Sequence record: MF158040 | DNA length: 64,000 nt | Origin: Shigella phage Sf13 | Strand: one strand, 5' to 3' | Shown here: one piece after another, positions 35,947 to 63,888 of the stretch | How positions within the stretch are numbered: the stretch's first letter is position 1 | How the letters are laid out: each line of letters starts with the position of its first letter | The notes under the pieces: model-generated | Database searches by the model: none | Told to the model about the DNA's origin: nothing | Seen by the model: the letters and a program-made list of their open reading frames with translations, nothing else | Made by a program: the position numbers and the translations under genes

Positions 35947-36741
35947 TTAGTTACGTGCTTCAACATAGCTTACGTTTTCATGTGTGATATAATCTTCTGC
36001 AAACTCTTCTGTAGTAGCATTGATATATACACTTGCATCATCGCCAAACGTTACCGCTCTGTGGTGGTGGCCTTGTAACGGGTGGGTAACTTGAGCGTTA
36101 CTTCGATTGTACTTATCAACCGGAGGGTAACTGGTGTGTACCTTGCCATTACGCTTCACCTTGAGGGTAACTTTATCCTTGCCTACCACAGCAACACCAT
36201 CAAAGTATTGAGGCTCACTGAAGTTCTCCCAACCAGTAACAGGACTAGTCAACTGACTGTACATCTTATCTTCATAGACATACATATATACGTCAACATC
36301 TTTCATGGTCTGATTAATAATGGACAGCACAGCCATACTATCAAGACCACCAATCCCTGCACCAATCATAGGGAGTCCAACCTTCTTAAGCTGGTTTACT
36401 TTACAGTAGTTGTTAAGACGCTGTAAAGCTGCTTCTAAGGCATTGTATCGTGCATTTTTTCCAGTGATAACCTGAGTATAAAGGTTAGCAATTCGACCCT
36501 GCTTCAAACGTGCTACAGAGATGTTACCAAGCATTAGATTCTTAGGGTTATGGTTTTCACCACCTACTGTAGCATAAACTTCAGCGTCAGTTTCATAAGC
36601 TTTTGGGTAGCGTTTAGCAATTGTTGCTGCGATACCTGCACCCATCAAGTTCATGCAGTTACAACCGTGACCAATGATATCAAACTTCTTACCATCAAAG
36701 TCTTTAAAGATATCACCTTTAATAATTTTTACGATACCCAT
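35947..36741 (-). CDS. macro domain (ADP-ribose binding/processing) protein with C-terminal domain of unknown function
   Basis: Macro-like motifs IIKGDIF...GHGCNCMNLMGAGIAATIAKRYP ... KKVGLPMIGAGIGGLD; start set to ATG at M20 one nt after the zinc-ribbon gene stop. Confidence 0.55.
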   Translation of the reverse strand: MGIVKIIKGDIFKDFDGKKFDIIGHGCNCMNLMGAGIAATIAKRYPKAYETDAEVYATVGGENHNPKNLMLGNISVARLKQGRIANLYTQVITGKNARYNALEAALQRLNNYCKVNQLKKVGLPMIGAGIGGLDSMAVLSIINQTMKDVDVYMYVYEDKMYSQLTSPVTGWENFSEPQYFDGVAVVGKDKVTLKVKRNGKVHTSYPPVDKYNRSNAQVTHPLQGHHHRAVTFGDDASVYINATTEEFAEDYITHENVSYVEARN

Positions 36742-43746: not shown

Positions 43747-43926
43747 TTACTTTTTAAATTTCTTTCCAGTTCCATTACAGTAAGGGCAACAATGACCTAT
43801 ACCAACTACCCCAGAACCTTCACACTCATCACAAGGTTCGGTCTCTGAGAAGTACTTGCATAGTAACACTGCAAAAGCAACTATACAACCGAGTGAAAGA
43901 ACAATTTCTAACCAATAACCTTGCAT
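43747..43926 (-). CDS. small membrane-anchored protein with two CxxCxGxG (DnaJ-type) zinc-finger motifs (59 aa), not in ORF track
   Basis: ATG with AGGAG RBS 9 nt upstream; N-terminal TM segment; CDECEGSG and CPYCNGTG motifs. Confidence 0.4.
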   Translation of the reverse strand: MQGYWLEIVLSLGCIVAFAVLLCKYFSETEPCDECEGSGVVGIGHCCPYCNGTGKKFKK

Positions 43927-44260: not shown

Positions 44261-44281
44261 AAAAAGGCTCCCGTAGGAGCC
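44261..44281 (-). terminator. rho-independent terminator (minus strand)
   Basis: GGCTCCTACGGGAGCC hairpin followed by TTTTT on minus strand. Confidence 0.55.
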
Positions 44282-44296
44282 TCTTATCATACTGTT

Positions 44297-46114
44297 TTAA
44301 AGTTGCTTGTCAATAGTATTTCGAACATCACGCAGGTTAATGTAACCATAAGGTTGCGAGTTGCTAAATACCAGTTTCAAAGCACTATGACAATTGTCAA
44401 TTGCACCTTCAAACTCTGCAAAGCCAAAACCATCTACAGCTACCAGCTTGTCACCATCCCACATAGGGACAACTCCACCAAAAGCAGACTTCTTAAGACC
44501 GCTGTCAGTTTTAGGGTCTTTAGCCAGCATAATTTCTTGACCATCCATCTGTGCAAGAGTTGCTTTAACAGCAAATGCAAAGGTGTCACGAGTCAGGTAC
44601 TGATAGGTGTATGAGCCTACACCAAACACTACGTTAGAACTTGCAAAACCTTTATCAGCAAGACGTGACAGAATCTCATTAGCCCTTTCCAGAGTGATAG
44701 AATCACCGTAGATTAGTCCAATGTGCTCATCCAGTACTTTGTACCCTTTGGAGTTAATAGTGCCACCAAAGATGTTATACAGCGTGTGGATAGCTCCGTC
44801 AATTTCTGCTGTCAGCATACGCTTCACAGTAAACTGTCCAGTTTTCTGAGCGGTAATCAGGTTGATTGTATCAGCAGATTCAAAATCTTCTTTATCAACA
44901 ACCATCTCATAACCTTCAGAGATTAGCCAAGCAGAGAACCCAAAGCCAATATCAGACATTTCACAATTCAAGATTGTGTCATGCAGATGTGTATTGTTCG
45001 GTGCAAGCTCTTTCATGTGCTTATAGAACATTGACTTAGCAGTTTCCCATTCAATGGCTTTGTAACCTGTGACAATGTGAACAGGGTCTCCAGAGTCTGG
45101 ACGGATTACCAACTTACCATCACGATTCAGGATTACATTACGTAGCTCTGGCAGAATCTGTGTAACAGTACGCCAGAAGTTGTAAGTATCTGATACGGCA
45201 CTTGCAATACCAGTTGGGTAAACTTCTGTCAGAAGGCGATGGAAAGTTTCTACCTCACCACGCCAACGCATTGCATCAAGTAAGTTGTCAGAATGCGATA
45301 GATGCCAATCACTTACCTCTTTGTTAAGACTGTTCCATGAGATGTTTGCACACATCACAGAGTGCTCAGTAGCTGGGACAGAGTTACCAATCTCACCTAC
45401 ATTCATAAACTGACCATATGCACGTTTAGCTGTATATACAGCAGGGAAGCTGTCAGTACCTTTAAAACTTGTCAGGTGACCTACTGCGTTAAACGCATCA
45501 TCTGTGAAGCCAGACATACCACGCATTGCAAAGTCATGACACTGCCAAGGTAAATGGAAGTCGTTGTCACAGGTCTTGTCAGCCCATTGCTTACAAATAC
45601 GTTTGTAGTGCAGTGCAATTGTTGCAATCGTACAAGCTTTCCAGATTTCAGCAGAGAAAGCATCTTCAAGGTAACCAGCTACCCAATGGAATCCCTCTAC
45701 AGTGTTTTTGAATACAATCATCGGGACACGCATAGGGACAATTGTACCTTCCTCTACAGAGTAGACTTCAACAGGTAGGTAGCCCAAGTCATGAAGTTCT
45801 TCCCAATGTTGACGACCAATAGCATCTGCACCGAGAACACCATTCATGATTTCCAAGATTTCGTCAATGGCTTCTTTCTTATCACGTTCAAAGAACGTTG
45901 CATTCCAGTGGTCTACCAGATAGTCTTTTACAAAACGCTGAATACCAAAGGCTACAACACCATCAATCTCTAACGGAGAGTTAAACCATTTGTCTCCACG
46001 AGGTGTTAAGTTCAGCATAAGATACTGTGTAGCATCTGGATACTGGTAGAAATGGCCAGATTTGTAGGCATCTGCATTAAGTGCTGCTGGTACTGCATAA
46101 AGTGATTTAGTCAT
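44297..46114 (-). CDS. nicotinamide phosphoribosyltransferase-like protein (NadV/NAMPT family; Namat-like)
   Basis: 605 aa; NAMPT-family size and recalled sequence character; adjacent to Prs-like gene. Confidence 0.55.
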   Translation of the reverse strand: MTKSLYAVPAALNADAYKSGHFYQYPDATQYLMLNLTPRGDKWFNSPLEIDGVVAFGIQRFVKDYLVDHWNATFFERDKKEAIDEILEIMNGVLGADAIGRQHWEELHDLGYLPVEVYSVEEGTIVPMRVPMIVFKNTVEGFHWVAGYLEDAFSAEIWKACTIATIALHYKRICKQWADKTCDNDFHLPWQCHDFAMRGMSGFTDDAFNAVGHLTSFKGTDSFPAVYTAKRAYGQFMNVGEIGNSVPATEHSVMCANISWNSLNKEVSDWHLSHSDNLLDAMRWRGEVETFHRLLTEVYPTGIASAVSDTYNFWRTVTQILPELRNVILNRDGKLVIRPDSGDPVHIVTGYKAIEWETAKSMFYKHMKELAPNNTHLHDTILNCEMSDIGFGFSAWLISEGYEMVVDKEDFESADTINLITAQKTGQFTVKRMLTAEIDGAIHTLYNIFGGTINSKGYKVLDEHIGLIYGDSITLERANEILSRLADKGFASSNVVFGVGSYTYQYLTRDTFAFAVKATLAQMDGQEIMLAKDPKTDSGLKKSAFGGVVPMWDGDKLVAVDGFGFAEFEGAIDNCHSALKLVFSNSQPYGYINLRDVRNTIDKQL

Positions 46115-46158
46115 CTTTTTATCTCTCTCAAAGTGGGGCTTTTCAGCCCCTAAAGTTG

Positions 46159-47040
46159 TTATTCAATATTTGCTACTGTCACTTGTGAGAAGTGGGAAAG
46201 ACCACGGTCTTTTTCATCCCCTAGTGAGTCTGTAGTGTAGATATGGTCGATGCCATTGTCAAGAAGATTTTCAACACCTTTAGAGAAAATCCCATGAGTA
46301 ACATAAAGCTCTACACGTTCTGCTCCAGCTTCACGAAGATACTTTGCAGCCTCGATAAAGGTTCGACCACCATCACAGATATCATCCAGAATCATAACAG
46401 TCTTACCTGTTAAGTCTACATCATCAAGGATTCGCATACCAGTGATTTCACCAGTTTTCAGGTTTCGTACCTTTGCCATTGTGATATAAGGTTTCTCAAC
46501 CTCTTTAGCAGCCTCTTCAGTCTTCTTAGCTGCACCTGCATCTGGAGCCACTAAGTAATCAATGCGTGGGTCACTTGCAAAGTGGACTGCTGCCTCTTTT
46601 TGAGGGATGTTGTAGAAGCACTTAAACAAGTTCTCTGCTACATTACTGTGAGTATCCAGAGCACATACTGCATCAAACCCCATAGCATTTACAAGATTTG
46701 CAAAGACTTTAAGTGCTGCTGAATCGCCTTTAAACATGTGACGGTCATAGCGAGCATTTGGTAAGAATCCAAAAAGAACAGTTTTCATGGTTGCTTTCTG
46801 AGGAATCAAACGGTCAATAGCCTCTTTAGCCATAGCCAATGCAAAGAGTGTGTCTTTGTCATAACCTTGTACAGTGAATATTACGTTTTCAATCTTACCA
46901 GCAGCATGTTCAGCAAAGTCTACTAAGTCTTCTGAGAAGTTACCACCAATCTCCCCAGAAGGGAACTGGATAATGTTGAAGGTCTCTTGATGAGAACCTT
47001 TGGAATTTGAATTAAGTAGAACTCGAATAGTAGTTTTCAT
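46159..47040 (-). CDS. ribose-phosphate pyrophosphokinase-like protein (Prs family; Adps-like)
   Basis: PRPP-synthetase-like motifs (LVAPDAGAAKK; MILDDICDGGRTF); track TTG start trimmed to ATG at M7 with GAGAGAG RBS. Confidence 0.55.
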   Translation of the reverse strand: MKTTIRVLLNSNSKGSHQETFNIIQFPSGEIGGNFSEDLVDFAEHAAGKIENVIFTVQGYDKDTLFALAMAKEAIDRLIPQKATMKTVLFGFLPNARYDRHMFKGDSAALKVFANLVNAMGFDAVCALDTHSNVAENLFKCFYNIPQKEAAVHFASDPRIDYLVAPDAGAAKKTEEAAKEVEKPYITMAKVRNLKTGEITGMRILDDVDLTGKTVMILDDICDGGRTFIEAAKYLREAGAERVELYVTHGIFSKGVENLLDNGIDHIYTTDSLGDEKDRGLSHFSQVTVANIE

Positions 47041-47050
47041 AATATCTCTC

Positions 47051-47356
47051 TCAGTCAAAAGTTACAAATGTTACAGCCATAGCTGATTTACATTTCTTTG
47101 GGTCTACAATGTGGTAGATAACTGAACAGTTTCCTGTTCCGTCTGGTACTGGTTTTGTCCAAGTACGTTCAATATTTGGCTCTCCAAACTCTTTATAGAA
47201 TCCGTTGGAGTAGTGGTCTATCATCTCAATAGCAAGTGCATCTGGGACGTGACCACGTATCATATACATCTCACTACCATTTCCAGCTTCGCTAATAAGC
47301 TCTTTGATATCCCATTGTTCTCTAGCCATGATAAGTTGCCTCATAAACTGTCTCAA
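47051..47356 (-). CDS. hypothetical protein (101 aa)
   Basis: ORF track. Confidence 0.45.
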   Translation of the reverse strand: MRQFMRQLIMAREQWDIKELISEAGNGSEMYMIRGHVPDALAIEMIDHYSNGFYKEFGEPNIERTWTKPVPDGTGNCSVIYHIVDPKKCKSAMAVTFVTFD

Positions 47357-47837
47357 GCTTCAACAAGAGAGATATTGCCAGAAATGCGTATTCCCTGTCA
47401 AGCATTGGTGGCATATTATTTATAAGATATGCTTCCTGTTCTTCCCAAGTCATCTTAGGAGCTTCTGGAAGCTTCTCTCCTTGCTTCTGGTTATCTTCTT
47501 GAGTCTGGATAAACCAGTTCGAGCAATGGTGCTCTCCACCTTTTGTCACGGGCTTATGGTGGCCTAACGTGAAAGCTTTCTTTCCAGAATATCTACAAAG
47601 CTTATTAAGGGTTGCAATAGTATTCTTGACAACACAGTATTCATAGAGGTTGTCAATAGTGTAATGAGGGTAGTACTGGAACAAGGCACTATCACGGAAC
47701 TTACCACGGTTCCAAAGCACCATGTGATTAGAATTTGAAGGGTCATACTGATGTGACTCGATGAACTCTTGACGCTCATCAAAATCAAGACGAAGAACAG
47801 ACATTGCAGCAGCACGTTTCAGATTTGAATGGTACAT
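47322..47837 (-). CDS. HNH endonuclease (free-standing homing endonuclease candidate)
   Basis: HNH-like motif LGHHKPVTKGGEHHCSNW; own RBS after terminator. Confidence 0.5.
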   Translation of the reverse strand: MYHSNLKRAAAMSVLRLDFDERQEFIESHQYDPSNSNHMVLWNRGKFRDSALFQYYPHYTIDNLYEYCVVKNTIATLNKLCRYSGKKAFTLGHHKPVTKGGEHHCSNWFIQTQEDNQKQGEKLPEAPKMTWEEQEAYLINNMPPMLDREYAFLAISLLLKLETVYEATYHG

Positions 47838-47846
47838 GATTTCTCC

Positions 47847-47875
47847 AAAATAAAAAGGGAACCTTTTACAGTTCC
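47847..47875 (-). terminator. rho-independent terminator (minus strand)
   Basis: GGGAAC-loop-GTTCCC hairpin followed by TTTTTATTTT on minus strand. Confidence 0.55.
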
Positions 47876-47889
47876 CTAATCATATACGC

Positions 47890-56721: not shown

Positions 56722-57040
56722 GATATCTATCCAAGTTTCGTTTCAAGTAAATCCACTGGTCATCTGTGCGCTCTACACCCATGAACAGGGGGGCTACAAC
56801 AACTTTACCAAAAGTATTTCTGTGCTGGCAAATCTCGTAAGAGTACGGTTTATCAATATTTAAGCCATACTTATACAACACTGCTGCTAATACTTGTTCA
56901 TTATCCAGAATCGTTTCTGGCTTCTCTCCGTACTTGTCTAACAGTGAATCATTCATAAACACTGTCATAGAGAGGTTGTAGTTGGAGAAGTGGCTTTTTG
57001 CCACCACTTCTTCACCTTTATTAATGTTCTGTGAATCCAT
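56714..57040 (-). CDS. hypothetical protein (108 aa)
   Basis: ORF track. Confidence 0.45.
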   Translation of the reverse strand: MDSQNINKGEEVVAKSHFSNYNLSMTVFMNDSLLDKYGEKPETILDNEQVLAAVLYKYGLNIDKPYSYEICQHRNTFGKVVVAPLFMGVERTDDQWIYLKRNLDRYHV

Positions 57041-57776
57041 TATAACCGACTCCTTTCAACCACTGCTTGAGGTTGATTGCATCATAATTCAATTTCGGAT
57101 ATGAGGTTACATGGAACTTCTCACCATCATAGTACACAATATCCGCAAGCCATAATCCATTCTCACGGCAGAAATCTTTATCTGCTTTTGAAGAGATTGG
57201 TTCAACTTTAGAAAAGTTTTTAATGCCAAGACTACCAAGACTTCCAATCAGTCCTTGGCAGATAACGCATGTGTCAGATGTTACCACAAATAATTCTTTT
57301 GCGTCAACTTCTGCAATAAAACTTTCAAGTTGAACTTTTGGAAGATTAGACTGTTTCATAATCTTACCATCAGACTTGCGAATAATCGCAAACCACTCTT
57401 TACCTTCAATGATTGATTGACGCAGGTAACATTCATCACCAGTACGTTTCTCAATATCAAACATTCGCTGTAGAGCTTCTTGATAGTCGTCTGTGTATTT
57501 GAGGTTGTTGTTTTCACAAACAGCCTTGATAGCACCATCATGGTCATGTTGTGTCAGGAAAATTAAACCATCAAGTACATACTGCAAATCAGCTTGAGCA
57601 TCAAGGGTCTCAACAGGGTCTTTGGCTTCTACTGCTGCGACTAACTCTCTAGCTTCTTCAAGCATACACAGAGATTGGCTTTTCAGTGATTCCCAATACT
57701 CTGTGCTGTATGGTTCTTTTGGATTATTGCCACAACGTAGATTCCAATTTCTTACGGATTCTCTGGAATTAAACAT
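57021..57776 (-). CDS. hypothetical protein (251 aa)
   Basis: ORF track; no confident motif. Confidence 0.45.
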   Translation of the reverse strand: MFNSRESVRNWNLRCGNNPKEPYSTEYWESLKSQSLCMLEEARELVAAVEAKDPVETLDAQADLQYVLDGLIFLTQHDHDGAIKAVCENNNLKYTDDYQEALQRMFDIEKRTGDECYLRQSIIEGKEWFAIIRKSDGKIMKQSNLPKVQLESFIAEVDAKELFVVTSDTCVICQGLIGSLGSLGIKNFSKVEPISSKADKDFCRENGLWLADIVYYDGEKFHVTSYPKLNYDAINLKQWLKGVGYNGFTEH

Positions 57777-63106: not shown

Positions 63107-63847
63107 TTACAGATTGATAATGGTTTTAAGTTTGCTCTCTAATTCTTCCATCGTTCCATTATTCTGGATAATATCACGAGAGAAGTTAGTGGAGATACCA
63201 CGTTCAGAACTATGGGAAGCAACCTGAATAGCATCTTTTCTTGTAATCTCAATTATCTGGCTATCATAGCTTTGAAGGAACTCAGCTTCAATATCAAACC
63301 TTAAATCACATATCAGTGCAATACCTATGTGACTTTTCTTAACGCAATCTCCATAGAATTTTTCAATACGTTCTGCCAAATCTGTAATCCAGAAACGCTC
63401 TCCAAGAATTTTACGGATAACCTCACTACCCCATACTTGCTGTATTTGTCTTGAGGAAATCATATATTCATTTTTCAAACCAAGCTTTGTACGCAATGTA
63501 GGTTTACCAACTTTCTTTAGCTCTTTGATAAGCCTGTCTGTGATTTCCCCACAAAGTTTTGCATCATCTTGTATGCCTTTGCTTTTCATGTTTATATTGA
63601 AAGCCCATGCCACACGGGAGTTAAGATTGTCAAAATCTAAGCTAAACTTTTTAGGTGTTTCTTTCGTATCACCATATAGGTCTTGCCAGTTCAAGTCAAA
63701 GATAAATCCGGCAGTTGCTTTTAAGTTATCGGCAAACGCAAACACTTTAACAGTGTATCCAGCCTCATCCAATAGATTTTTTACAATACTGCAAGACGTA
63801 TCCTTTCCAGAACGAGCTTTTCCAGTAAATGCAATAACACTTTTCAT
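63107..63847 (-). CDS. deoxynucleoside monophosphate kinase-like protein
   Basis: P-loop VIAFTGKARSGKDT close to T4 gp1 N-terminus as I recall it; start set to M11 with GGAGTGA RBS. Confidence 0.5.
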   Translation of the reverse strand: MKSVIAFTGKARSGKDTSCSIVKNLLDEAGYTVKVFAFADNLKATAGFIFDLNWQDLYGDTKETPKKFSLDFDNLNSRVAWAFNINMKSKGIQDDAKLCGEITDRLIKELKKVGKPTLRTKLGLKNEYMISSRQIQQVWGSEVIRKILGERFWITDLAERIEKFYGDCVKKSHIGIALICDLRFDIEAEFLQSYDSQIIEITRKDAIQVASHSSERGISTNFSRDIIQNNGTMEELESKLKTIINL

Positions 63848-63865
63848 ATCAGTCACTCCATAATA

Positions 63866-63888
63866 AAAAGCCCCCAATTAAGGAGGCT
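63866..63888 (-). terminator. candidate terminator (minus strand)
   Basis: Hairpin AGCCTCC-ttaatt-GGGGGCT followed by TTTTTATT on minus strand. Confidence 0.35.

What the first reader, a model, noticed from the sequence alone, without database searches (positions are those of the whole stretch)
44297..47040. Adjacent Prs-like and NAMPT-like genes: candidate phage NAD+ reconstitution pathway
A ribose-phosphate pyrophosphokinase-like gene (46159..47040) lies directly upstream of a nicotinamide phosphoribosyltransferase-like gene (44297..46114) in the same orientation. From established knowledge, this gene pair matches the phage two-enzyme NAD+ reconstitution pathway (ADP-ribose pyrophosphokinase plus nicotinamide ADP-ribose transferase) that rebuilds NAD+ from ADP-ribose and nicotinamide to counter NAD-depleting defences. 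The family assignments rest on motifs and size, not on a search.
Basis: partly seen in the sequence, partly recalled or inferred. Interest (0 to 1): 0.6.

Follow-up and report, generated by a model that had tools for sequence, protein, structure and literature searches.

The report
Known phage NAD+ rebuilding gene pair

Summary
On the minus strand, an intact 293-aa Prs-like ORF (46159-47040) lies 44 nt upstream of an intact 605-aa NAMPT-like ORF (44297-46114).

The window comes from a Mooglevirus (Ounavirinae). It is 99.8% identical in DNA to Shigella phage Sf15 across the pair.

The two proteins are orthologues of genes 79 and 80 of phage Bas63, the operon in which NARP1 was discovered. Identity is 81% (no gaps) and 76%, and the gene order is the same. 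They keep the residues that separate Adps and Namat from ordinary PRPP synthetase and Nampt:
- Adps: catalytic hairpin Lys190 (KVRNLKTGEI) and PP loop DDICDGGRTF.
- Namat: adenine-clamp motif GSYTYQYLTRD, the K42-W43 loop, and the catalytic core.

The supplementary tables of the discovery paper already list the Sf15 pair.

Two details are not covered in the papers I could read:
- Namat of this phage lineage carries an 85-aa inserted domain. It is predicted with high confidence and has no detectable structural relative.
- A Poa1p/Adpp-like macro-domain gene lies 7.5 kb downstream, outside the operon. It could extend the pathway to ADPR-1''-phosphate, but this is untested.

The parts
46159..47040 (-). 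Adps (ADP-ribose pyrophosphokinase, PRPS-like), 293 aa
   Evidence: ORF. Pfam and PHROG hits. 81% identical, without gaps, to Bas63_0079. 100% identical to Sf15 gp26.
46444..46473 (-). Adps catalytic beta-hairpin KVRNLKTGEI, with Lys190 equivalent to ICP1 Lys185 and Gary Lys192
   Evidence: Alignments; coordinates checked. The role of this Lys is from PMC13586617; the K192A primers are.
46357..46386 (-). Adps PP loop DDICDGGRTF (ICP1: DDICDGAASF)
   Evidence: PMC13586617.
46135..46150 (-). Intergenic hairpin GGGGCT-GAAA-AGCCCC between Adps and Namat. The stem is conserved in Bas63. Function unknown.
   Evidence: Sequence; Bas63 counterpart GGGGCT-TGAA-AGCCCC.
44297..46114 (-). Namat (nicotinamide ADP-ribose transferase, Nampt-like), 605 aa
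   Evidence: ORF. Pfam and PHROG hits. 76% identical to Bas63_0080. AF2 model pLDDT 92.4. Best structural match is the SPbetaL1 Namat crystal structures 9w5x/9w5w, TM 0.94 normalised to the target.
44585..44617 (-). Namat selectivity-clamp helix motif GSYTYQYLTRD (residues 500-510)
   Evidence: Fits the GS-X-Phi-X-Phi-X-Phi-TRD signature of PMC12774641. True Nampts differ at this position: Xcc GGALLQKVDRD and HdNadV GAQTYQRNTRD.
45980..46006 (-). Namat selectivity-clamp loop TPRGDKWFN, with Lys42-Trp43 as in Bas63
   Evidence: the rule for the stacking residue is in PMC12774641.
45257..45340 (-). Namat insertion 1 (residues 259-286), directly after the catalytic His251 motif. Lineage-specific; 11 aa longer than in Bas63.
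   Evidence: predicted helical with pLDDT about 82-95.
44807..45061 (-). Namat insertion 2 (residues 352-436), an inserted alpha/beta subdomain with no detectable structural relative
44262..44285 (-). Terminator-like hairpin AAGAGGCTCC-TACG-GGAGCCTTTT, 12 nt after the Namat stop codon
   Evidence: The identical sequence follows Bas63 gene 80.
35947..36741 (-). Candidate unlinked accessory gene, not proven to belong: Poa1p/Adpp-like macro-domain protein, 264 aa, with a C-terminal extension of about 105 aa
   Evidence: Pfam Macro 3.5e-8. 31% identical (E 9e-18) to the Adpp of Vibrio phages Gary and GRLPWR, with the His equivalent to Gary H24 conserved. Best PDB sequence hits are yeast Poa1p, the ADPR-1''-P phosphatase. 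Same PHROG 335 as Gary Adpp. Orthologue in Bas63 is gene 0095, 64% identical.

Best explanation

When an NADase defence (SIR2, TIR or DSR-type effectors) cleaves host NAD+ into ADP-ribose and nicotinamide, two steps follow:
1. The PRPS-like enzyme Adps (46159-47040) transfers the beta,gamma-pyrophosphate of ATP to the 1'' hydroxyl of the terminal ribose of ADP-ribose, giving ADPR-pyrophosphate and AMP.
2. The Nampt-like enzyme Namat (44297-46114) replaces that pyrophosphate with nicotinamide and regenerates NAD+ directly, with no NMN intermediate.

The two genes sit in one co-oriented unit that ends at a conserved terminator-like hairpin.

Shown here: intact genes, orthology to the Bas63 operon, and conservation of the catalytic and substrate-selectivity residues. 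Inferred from the literature on homologues: the chemistry and the anti-defence phenotype.
For: - Phage identity: the window is a Mooglevirus (Ounavirinae), 99.8% identical to Shigella phage Sf15 over the pair.
- Orthology: Adps is 81% identical without gaps to Bas63_0079, and Namat is 76% identical to Bas63_0080.
- Synteny: the order NrdG ... gene77, gene78, Adps, Namat ... rIIA, rIIB is shared.
- Bas63 experiments: deleting genes 79-80 makes the phage sensitive to SIR2-HerA and deepens NAD+ loss. ADPR-PP appears only with the wild-type phage plus the defence. [quoted passage not shown]
- Namat residues: D15, Y17, F195, R198, D221, H251, R338, D340, G470-D471 are kept, with the clamp motif GSYTYQYLTRD and K42-W43, as defined in PMC12774641.
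- Namat structure: the AF2 model (pLDDT 92.4) matches Namat crystal structures better than NadV or human NAMPT.
- Adps residues: F26, R97, H131, D167, K190, D219, D220, and the PP loop DDICDGGRTF, against the ICP1 Adps structures in PMC13586617.
- No NMNAT: none was found among 34 window ORFs scanned with Pfam.
- Prior listing: Sf15 genes 25 and 26 are listed in the discovery paper's tables, gene 25 as 'Adps-associated'.
Against: - No assay exists for these exact proteins or for any Mooglevirus. The biochemistry was done on homologues from SPbetaL1, ICP1 and Gary, which are only 30-46% identical to the window proteins.
- One ADPR adenine contact differs: ICP1 Phe92 is Met102 here, as in Bas63. 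The PP loop reads GGR where ICP1 has AAS.
- Namat homologues keep about half of human Nampt's PRPP activity in vitro, so some NMN synthesis is possible.
- The two lineage-specific insertions in Namat have no known role.
- The NMNAT check covered only part of the window, and the window is not the whole genome.
Confidence: 0.9

Rival explanations
1. Ordinary salvage. The first enzyme is a true PRPP synthetase and the second a true Nampt (NadV), together making NMN. A host or phage NMN adenylyltransferase then converts NMN to NAD+ (NARP2-like logic), or the PRPP simply feeds nucleotide synthesis.
For: - The GenBank annotations say exactly this, and Pfam and PHROG names agree.
- The pair lies in a nucleotide-metabolism block with NrdAB, NrdDG, glutaredoxin, a MazG-like protein and a dNMP kinase.
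- Namat homologues retain PRPP-dependent NMN synthesis in vitro.
Against: [quoted passage not shown]
- Adps has the K-x-R-[DN]-x-x-T-G-[DE]-I hairpin shared with four Adps homologues that have genetic or biochemical support. E. coli Prs reads DKRRPRANV at this position.
- The orthologous Bas63 operon works in a host lacking pncC and nadR and produces ADPR-PP.
- No NMNAT domain was found among 34 ORFs scanned.
Confidence: 0.04
2. Extended, split pathway. NARP1 here works together with the macro-domain protein encoded 7.5 kb downstream (35947-36741). Like Adpp of Vibrio phage Gary, that protein would dephosphorylate ADPR-1''-phosphate to ADPR. The phage would then also escape RES-type (aRES) NAD+ phosphorolysis, although the phosphatase is not in the operon. 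This adds to the best explanation rather than replacing it.
For: - The macro protein is 31% identical (E 9e-18) to Gary Adpp over the whole macro domain, with the His equivalent to Gary H24 (mutated to Ala in that study) conserved.
- Its best PDB sequence hits are yeast Poa1p, the ADPR-1''-P phosphatase.
- It belongs to the same PHROG 335 as Gary Adpp.
- It is conserved in Bas63 and in about 250 Ounavirinae-type records, roughly as many as carry the NARP1 pair.
- It is on the same strand as NARP1.
Against: - It is not adjacent: about 13 ORFs of unrelated function lie between, including rIIA/B, spanins and a polynucleotide kinase.
- The same macro family occurs in about 2,600 phage records, against about 1,360 with an Adps homologue, so many carriers must lack Adps and the association is not specific.
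- No Escherichia, Shigella or Citrobacter phage appears in the published table of NARP1-associated macro genes.
- The C-terminal extension of about 105 aa has no counterpart in Adpp.
- No experiment bears on it.
Confidence: 0.3
3. The genes are decaying or inactive remnants.
For: In the related Pectobacterium phage Arno18 the Adps region is annotated as two short ORFs, and a homing endonuclease sits between Adps and Namat. The locus can therefore be disrupted.
Against: Both window ORFs are full length and match their orthologues end to end, with every catalytic residue kept. The Namat model is highly confident.
Confidence: 0.02

Closest known systems
NARP1 of Escherichia phage Bas63 (JohannRWettstein), genes 79-80 (Osterman et al., bioRxiv 10.1101/2024.02.11.579819)
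   Same: Direct orthologues: 81% and 76% identity. Adps has the same length (293 aa). Gene order is the same within the NrdG-to-rIIA block, and the terminator hairpin after Namat and the stem of the intergenic hairpin are identical. The clamp residues match (K42-W43, GSYTYQY[L/M]TRD). Namat carries insertions at the same two sites.
   Different: A different genus (Mooglevirus rather than Felixounavirus). Namat insertion 1 is 11 aa longer. One small gene between Namat and rIIA in Bas63 is missing here.
NARP1 of Bacillus phage SPbetaL1 (biochemically characterised Adps and Namat; Namat crystal structures 9w5w/9w5x)
   Same: Same two-gene order. The catalytic core and clamp-helix motif are conserved. 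It is the best structural match of the window Namat model, TM 0.94 on the target.
   Different: Only 46% (Namat) and 30% (Adps) identical. SPbetaL1 Namat is 491 aa and lacks both insertions. Its clamp loop uses Arg40 for stacking, where the window protein has Lys42-Trp43.
NARP1-AP of Vibrio phage Gary (Adps, Adpp macro phosphatase, Namat; bioRxiv 10.64898/2026.01.28.702374)
   Same: The window phage also encodes a Poa1p/Adpp-like macro-domain protein, 31% identical, with the His equivalent to Gary H24 kept and in the same PHROG.
   Different: In Gary the macro gene lies between Adps and Namat. Here it is 7.5 kb away and carries an extra C-terminal region of about 105 aa. Any cooperation with NARP1 is untested.
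NARP2 of Vibrio phage KVP40 (Nampt plus Nmnat)
   Same: It uses a Nampt-family enzyme and nicotinamide to restore NAD+.
   Different: NARP2 needs an NMN adenylyltransferase and PRPP and has no Adps. Here Adps is present, no NMNAT was found, and the Nampt-like enzyme carries the Namat clamp.
Cellular PRPP synthetase (E. coli Prs) and Nampt/NadV (Xcc, H. ducreyi, human)
   Same: Same folds and shared catalytic residues.
   Different: - Prs is 24.5% identical, has DKRRPRANV where Adps has KVRNLKTGEI, and extends further at the C-terminus in the alignment.
- The Nampts lack the aromatic clamp residues and have a shorter or different beta1-beta2 loop.

Membership tests
Adps (NARP1 enzyme 1) | PRPS-like two-domain phosphoribosyltransferase fold | tested here: met
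   Pfam Pribosyltran 2e-11 and Pribosyl_synth 6.5e-10. phrog_619 3e-100. PDB PRPS hits at 1e-17.
Adps (NARP1 enzyme 1) | Orthology to an Adps with an experimental phenotype | tested here: met
   81% identity, 293/293 aligned without gaps, to Bas63_0079. Listed as Sf15 gene 26 in the Prs/Adps table of the discovery paper.
Adps (NARP1 enzyme 1) | Catalytic beta-hairpin lysine (ICP1 K185; Gary K192) | tested here: met
   Lys190 in KVRNLKTGEI aligns with ICP1 K185 and Gary K192. K185A abolishes activity in ICP1 Adps.
Adps (NARP1 enzyme 1) | ADPR-contact residues (ICP1 F18, R87, F92, H121, D161, D212, D213) and the PP loop | tested here: met
   F26, R97, H131, D167, D219, D220 are conserved. F92 is Met102, the same as in Bas63. 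The PP loop is DDICDGGRTF against DDICDGAASF in ICP1.
Adps (NARP1 enzyme 1) | Pyrophosphorylates ADP-ribose and not ribose-5-phosphate | not testable with these tools
   Needs LC-MS with the purified enzyme. Shown only for the SPbetaL1 and ICP1 homologues.
Namat (NARP1 enzyme 2) | Nampt-like fold with the conserved nicotinamide/ribose-phosphate catalytic core, including the catalytic His | tested here: met
   Pfam NAPRTase 8.5e-32. D15, Y17, F195, R198, D221, A248, H251, R338, D340 aligned to the SPbetaL1 residues. Model pLDDT 92.4; top Foldseek hits are the Namat structures 9w5x/9w5w.
Namat (NARP1 enzyme 2) | [quoted passage not shown] | tested here: met
   GSYTYQYLTRD at residues 500-510. 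Position Phi3 is Leu, where Asn or Val is commonest. Xcc Nampt and HdNadV lack the aromatic residues.
Namat (NARP1 enzyme 2) | Selectivity-clamp loop that supplies a stacking residue (third residue Arg, or Lys/Tyr followed by the stacking residue) | tested here: met
   G40-D41-K42-W43, identical in type to Bas63 S-D-K-W. The stacking geometry itself was not modelled with a ligand.
Namat (NARP1 enzyme 2) | Gene adjacent to Adps | tested here: met
   44-nt spacer, same strand.
Namat (NARP1 enzyme 2) | Prefers ADPR-PP over PRPP and yields NAD+ directly | not testable with these tools
   Enzymology required. Shown for SPbetaL1 Namat.
NARP1 as an anti-defence system | Protects the phage from NAD+-depleting defences (SIR2-HerA, DSR1/2, Thoeris I, SEFIR) | not testable with these tools
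   Shown for Bas63 by deleting genes 79-80. No data exist for this phage.
NARP2 | Nampt partnered with an NMN adenylyltransferase | tested here: not met
   No nucleotidyltransferase (NMNAT) domain among the 34 window ORFs scanned with Pfam. None is annotated in the stretches of Sf15 and Bas63 that were read. Coverage is incomplete: ORFs in the structural region and the genome outside the window were not scanned.
NARP1-AP | Poa1p-like macro-domain ADPR-1''-P phosphatase (Adpp) encoded by the phage | tested here: met
   ORF 35947-36741: 31% identity, E 9e-18, to Gary Adpp, with the His equivalent to Gary H24 kept. Poa1p is the best PDB hit. Same PHROG 335.
NARP1-AP | Adpp gene located within the NARP1 operon | tested here: not met
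   It is 7.5 kb downstream, with about 13 intervening ORFs. Ounavirinae are absent from the published NARP1-macro table.
Canonical PRPP synthetase (Prs) | Flexible catalytic loop of the DKRRPR type and the C-terminal alpha11-alpha12 module | tested here: not met
   The window protein has KVRNLKTGEI where E. coli Prs has DKRRPRANV, and in the alignment it ends before the C-terminal segment of E. coli Prs. Loss of alpha11-alpha12 in Adps is described in PMC13586617.

The most novel reading that the evidence does not exclude
Two features of the Ounavirinae version of NARP1 are not described in the papers I could read.

1. The phage may run a 'split' NARP1-AP. The Poa1p/Adpp-like macro-domain protein at 35947-36741, which carries an extra C-terminal region of about 105 aa, would turn ADPR-1''-phosphate into ADPR. 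That would feed NARP1 and give resistance to aRES-type defence, even though the gene lies 7.5 kb from the operon.

2. Namat of this lineage carries an autonomously folding 85-aa inserted domain (residues 352-436) with no detectable structural relative. It could add a lineage-specific function, for example docking Adps to hand over the labile ADPR-PP, or regulation.
Probability: 0.3. Interest if true: 0.4.

Novelty: already known. Interest (0 to 1): 0.15.

Why it matters
NARP1 shows that viruses can undo a metabolic immune attack by rebuilding the destroyed metabolite. It protects phages against several NAD+-depleting defences, so it matters for choosing or engineering therapeutic phages against Shigella, E. 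coli and Citrobacter.

For this window the value is correct annotation. GenBank still names the two genes as a PRPP synthetase and a nicotinamide phosphoribosyltransferase, which implies the wrong chemistry.

The two side observations give cheap, testable follow-ups in a phage family for which a genetic system (Bas63) already exists: the inserted domain of unknown fold in Namat, and the unlinked Adpp-like macro gene.

Tried and rejected
- **Bas63 accession.** My guess MZ501113 was wrong; it is phage WilhelmHis. The correct accession, MZ501086, came from a paper. The first request for it failed on a range error.
- **Adps structures.** No Adps structure is in the PDB sequence copy; only canonical PRPS chains match. 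Adps residues were therefore judged by alignment to the ICP1 numbering in the paper.
- **Upstream gene as an accessory.** The conserved HNH-like gene at 47322-47837 was considered as a NARP1 accessory and rejected. In Phapecoctavirus 'ukendt' its homologue sits next to a UvrD-type helicase with no NARP1 gene nearby.
- **Promoters and terminators.** The promoter scan found 15 sites against 11.4 +/- 3.4 in shuffles, and the terminator scan 2 against 3.1 +/- 1.8, so neither is above chance. Only the hairpin after Namat is kept, because it is conserved identically in Bas63.
- **NMNAT.** None was found in the ORFs scanned with Pfam.
- **Literature on Ounavirinae and aRES.** A search for Adpp or NARP1-AP found only the aRES preprint, which holds no data on Bas63. 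One search failed because a search term was too short.
Full report
**Observation**

- ORF 46159..47058 starts at a TTG. Its internal ATG at 47040 gives 293 aa and is preceded by GAGAGA.
- ORF 44297..46114 encodes 605 aa.
- They are co-oriented, with the Prs-like gene upstream and 44 nt between them.

- First ORF: Pfam Pribosyltran and Pribosyl_synth; phrog_619 at 3e-100.
- Second ORF: Pfam NAPRTase and NAMPT_N; phrog_448 at 2e-199.

**Source and context**

Over 44297-47040 the window is 99.8% identical to Shigella phage Sf15 (Ounavirinae, Mooglevirus). It is 94-98% identical to other Shigella and Citrobacter Moogleviruses. In all, 255 phage records match, mostly Felixounavirus-type phages of Escherichia and Salmonella.

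In Sf15 the two genes are gp26 and gp25, annotated as ribose-phosphate pyrophosphokinase and nicotinamide phosphoribosyltransferase. They lie between the NrdD/NrdG block and rIIA/rIIB.

**Comparison with the experimentally defined system**

The library holds the paper that discovered NARP1 (bioRxiv 10.1101/2024.02.11.579819). The founding operon is genes 79-80 of BASEL phage Bas63, a Felixounavirus. According to that paper:
- Deleting the operon made Bas63 about 20-fold more sensitive to SIR2-HerA and deepened NAD+ loss.
- ADPR-pyrophosphate appeared only with the wild-type phage plus the defence.

I fetched Bas63 (MZ501086).
- The window Adps is 81% identical to Bas63_0079 over all 293 residues, without a gap.
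- The window Namat is 76% identical to Bas63_0080, 605 against 593 aa.
- The neighbourhoods are colinear: NrdG, small genes, a 171-aa gene, a 92-aa gene, Adps, Namat, small genes, rIIA, rIIB, then on to a polynucleotide kinase, spanins and a macro-domain gene.
- The terminator-like hairpin directly after Namat (AAGAGGCTCC-TACG-GGAGCC followed by a T run) is identical in both phages.
- A 6-bp GC hairpin between the two genes keeps its stem, although the loop and flanks differ.

**Residue-level tests: Namat**

The NAR 2026 structure paper (PMC12774641) defines Namat by three features:
- a Nampt-like catalytic core;
- a variable beta1-beta2 loop that supplies another stacking residue, either Arg or Lys/Tyr followed by the stacking residue, as in Bas63.

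The window protein has GSYTYQYLTRD at residues 500-510, and G-D-K42-W43 in the loop. It keeps D15, Y17, F195, R198, D221, A248, H251, R338, D340 and G470-D471. True Nampts differ at the clamp: Xcc has GGALLQKVDRD and H. ducreyi NadV has GAQTYQRNTRD.

An AlphaFold2 model built on 37 homologues has mean pLDDT 92.4. Its best Foldseek matches in the PDB are the SPbetaL1 Namat crystal structures 9w5x and 9w5w (TM 0.94 on the target). HdNadV and human or mouse NAMPT rank lower.

**Residue-level tests: Adps**

The NAR 2026 paper on ICP1 Adps (PMC13586617) names these features:
- ADPR contacts F18, R87, F92, H121, D161, D212 and D213;
- the PP loop C215-S220;
- the catalytic hairpin lysine K185, whose Ala mutant is inactive.

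Aligned with the Adps of ICP1, Gary/GRLPWR, SPbetaL1 and Bas63, and with E. coli Prs, the window protein has:
- F26, R97, H131, D167, K190, D219 and D220;
- the PP loop DDICDGGRTF;
- Met102 in place of F92, exactly as in Bas63.

All five Adps share K-x-R-[DN]-x-x-T-G-[DE]-I at the hairpin, where E. coli Prs has DKRRPRANV. This motif is my own reading of five sequences. The window Adps is only 24.5% identical to E. coli Prs.

**Alternative: NMN salvage (NARP2-like)**

This route would need an NMN adenylyltransferase. None appeared among 34 window ORFs scanned with Pfam, and none is annotated in the Sf15 and Bas63 stretches I read. The check is incomplete, because the structural-region ORFs and the genome outside the window were not scanned. 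Together with the Bas63 delta-pncC delta-nadR result, it makes ordinary salvage unlikely.

**Novelty**

Supplementary Table 2 of the discovery paper lists MF158041_00025 (Shigella phage Sf15) as an 'Adps-associated' NadV/Namat homologue. Supplementary Table 1 lists MF158041_00026 among the Prs/Adps homologues. Both entries start with the same N-terminal sequences as the window proteins, and Moogle, Michonne and Mordin are listed too. The pair has therefore already been catalogued as NARP1.

**Namat insertions, not covered in the papers read**

Relative to SPbetaL1, ICP1 and the roughly 496-aa enterobacterial chromosomal Namats, the Namats of Ounavirinae-like phages (about 590-610 aa) carry two insertions.
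- Insertion 1 is residues 259-286, directly after the catalytic His motif.
- Insertion 2 is residues 352-436, after RPDSGDP.

**The macro-domain gene, not covered in the papers read**

A macro-domain ORF at 35947-36741 lies on the same strand, 7.5 kb downstream of the pair.
- It is 31% identical (E 9e-18) to Adpp of Vibrio phage Gary. The GRLPWR protein is identical in sequence to Gary Adpp.
- Adpp is the ADPR-1''-phosphate phosphatase that extends NARP1 to counter the aRES defence (bioRxiv 10.64898/2026.01.28.702374).
- The His equivalent to Gary H24, which that study mutated to Ala, is conserved.
- The best PDB sequence hits are yeast Poa1p, and both proteins fall in PHROG 335.
- Bas63 has the orthologue, gene 0095, 64% identical.
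- The published table of NARP1-associated macro genes holds no Escherichia, Shigella or Citrobacter phage, and the preprint has no data on Bas63.

The caveats are substantial. The macro family is very widespread, with about 2,600 phage records against about 1,360 carrying an Adps homologue. The gene is not in the operon. It also carries an unexplained C-terminal extension of about 105 aa. I rate a functional 'split NARP1-AP' at about 0.3.

**Rejected leads**

- The HNH-like gene just upstream (47322-47837) is not linked to NARP1 elsewhere.
- The promoter and terminator scans as a whole are not above chance.

**Verdict**

I give 0.9 confidence that this is a functional NARP1. Novelty is 'already known', and interest is low at 0.15. 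The Namat inserted domain and the unlinked Adpp-like macro gene remain as modest, testable side leads.

Noticed in passing
window 35947-36741 (-): Macro-domain protein of 264 aa. It is Poa1p/Adpp-like over residues 1-155 and has a C-terminal extension of about 105 aa with no Pfam match. It is conserved in Bas63 (gene 0095, 'putative phosphatase'). It may supply ADPR to NARP1 from ADPR-1''-P, or serve an unrelated role; a polynucleotide kinase gene lies 2 kb away.
   Followed up: partly
window 44807-45061 (-), Namat residues 352-436: Inserted alpha/beta subdomain specific to the Namats of Ounavirinae-like phages. It is predicted with high confidence, alone and in context, and has no significant structural match in PDB representatives or BFVD.
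   Followed up: partly
window 46135-46150 (-): 6-bp GC hairpin (GGGGCT-GAAA-AGCCCC) in the 44-nt spacer between Adps and Namat. The stem is identical in Bas63 while the loop and flanks differ. It has no T run, so it is not a classical terminator; it may be an RNA stability or processing element.
   Followed up: partly
window 47322-47837 (-) and 47051-47329 (-): Two conserved small genes of unknown function lie directly upstream of Adps: a 171-aa HNH-like protein (phrog_3500) and a 92-aa protein (phrog_4726). They sit inside the stretch bracketed by terminator-like hairpins at 47856-47877 and 44262-44285. The HNH-like gene is not next to NARP1 in Phapecoctavirus ukendt.
   Followed up: partly
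L008 (Pectobacterium phage Arno18) 3447-4809: In this distant Ounavirinae relative the Adps region is annotated as two short ORFs, and a homing endonuclease gene sits between Adps and Namat. The locus appears to be a target for mobile endonucleases. Bas63 also has a homing endonuclease inside nrdD.
   Followed up: no
proteins P0065-P0120: Chromosomal proteins of about 496 aa from Klebsiella, Phytobacter, Kosakonia and Erwinia are 45-50% identical to the window Namat. Those included in the alignment carry the Namat clamp motif GS[FY]TYQYNTRD, consistent with the reported bacterial NARP1. Their neighbourhoods were not examined.
   Followed up: no
window 63107-63877 (-) and 57021-57776 (-): A deoxynucleotide monophosphate kinase (Pfam DNMK, 1.5e-18) and a MazG-like PRA-PH domain protein. 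According to the account in PMC12774641, phage dNMP kinases are the trigger of the NAD+-depleting Kongming defence, which NARP1 can counter. The phage may therefore carry both a trigger and a remedy.
   Followed up: no
window 43747-43926 (-): A 59-aa predicted membrane protein with a CxxCxGxG-like Cys motif at its C-terminus (weak DnaJ_CXXCXGXG hit; phrog_3931), two genes downstream of Namat. It is conserved in Bas63 as gene 0083.
   Followed up: no
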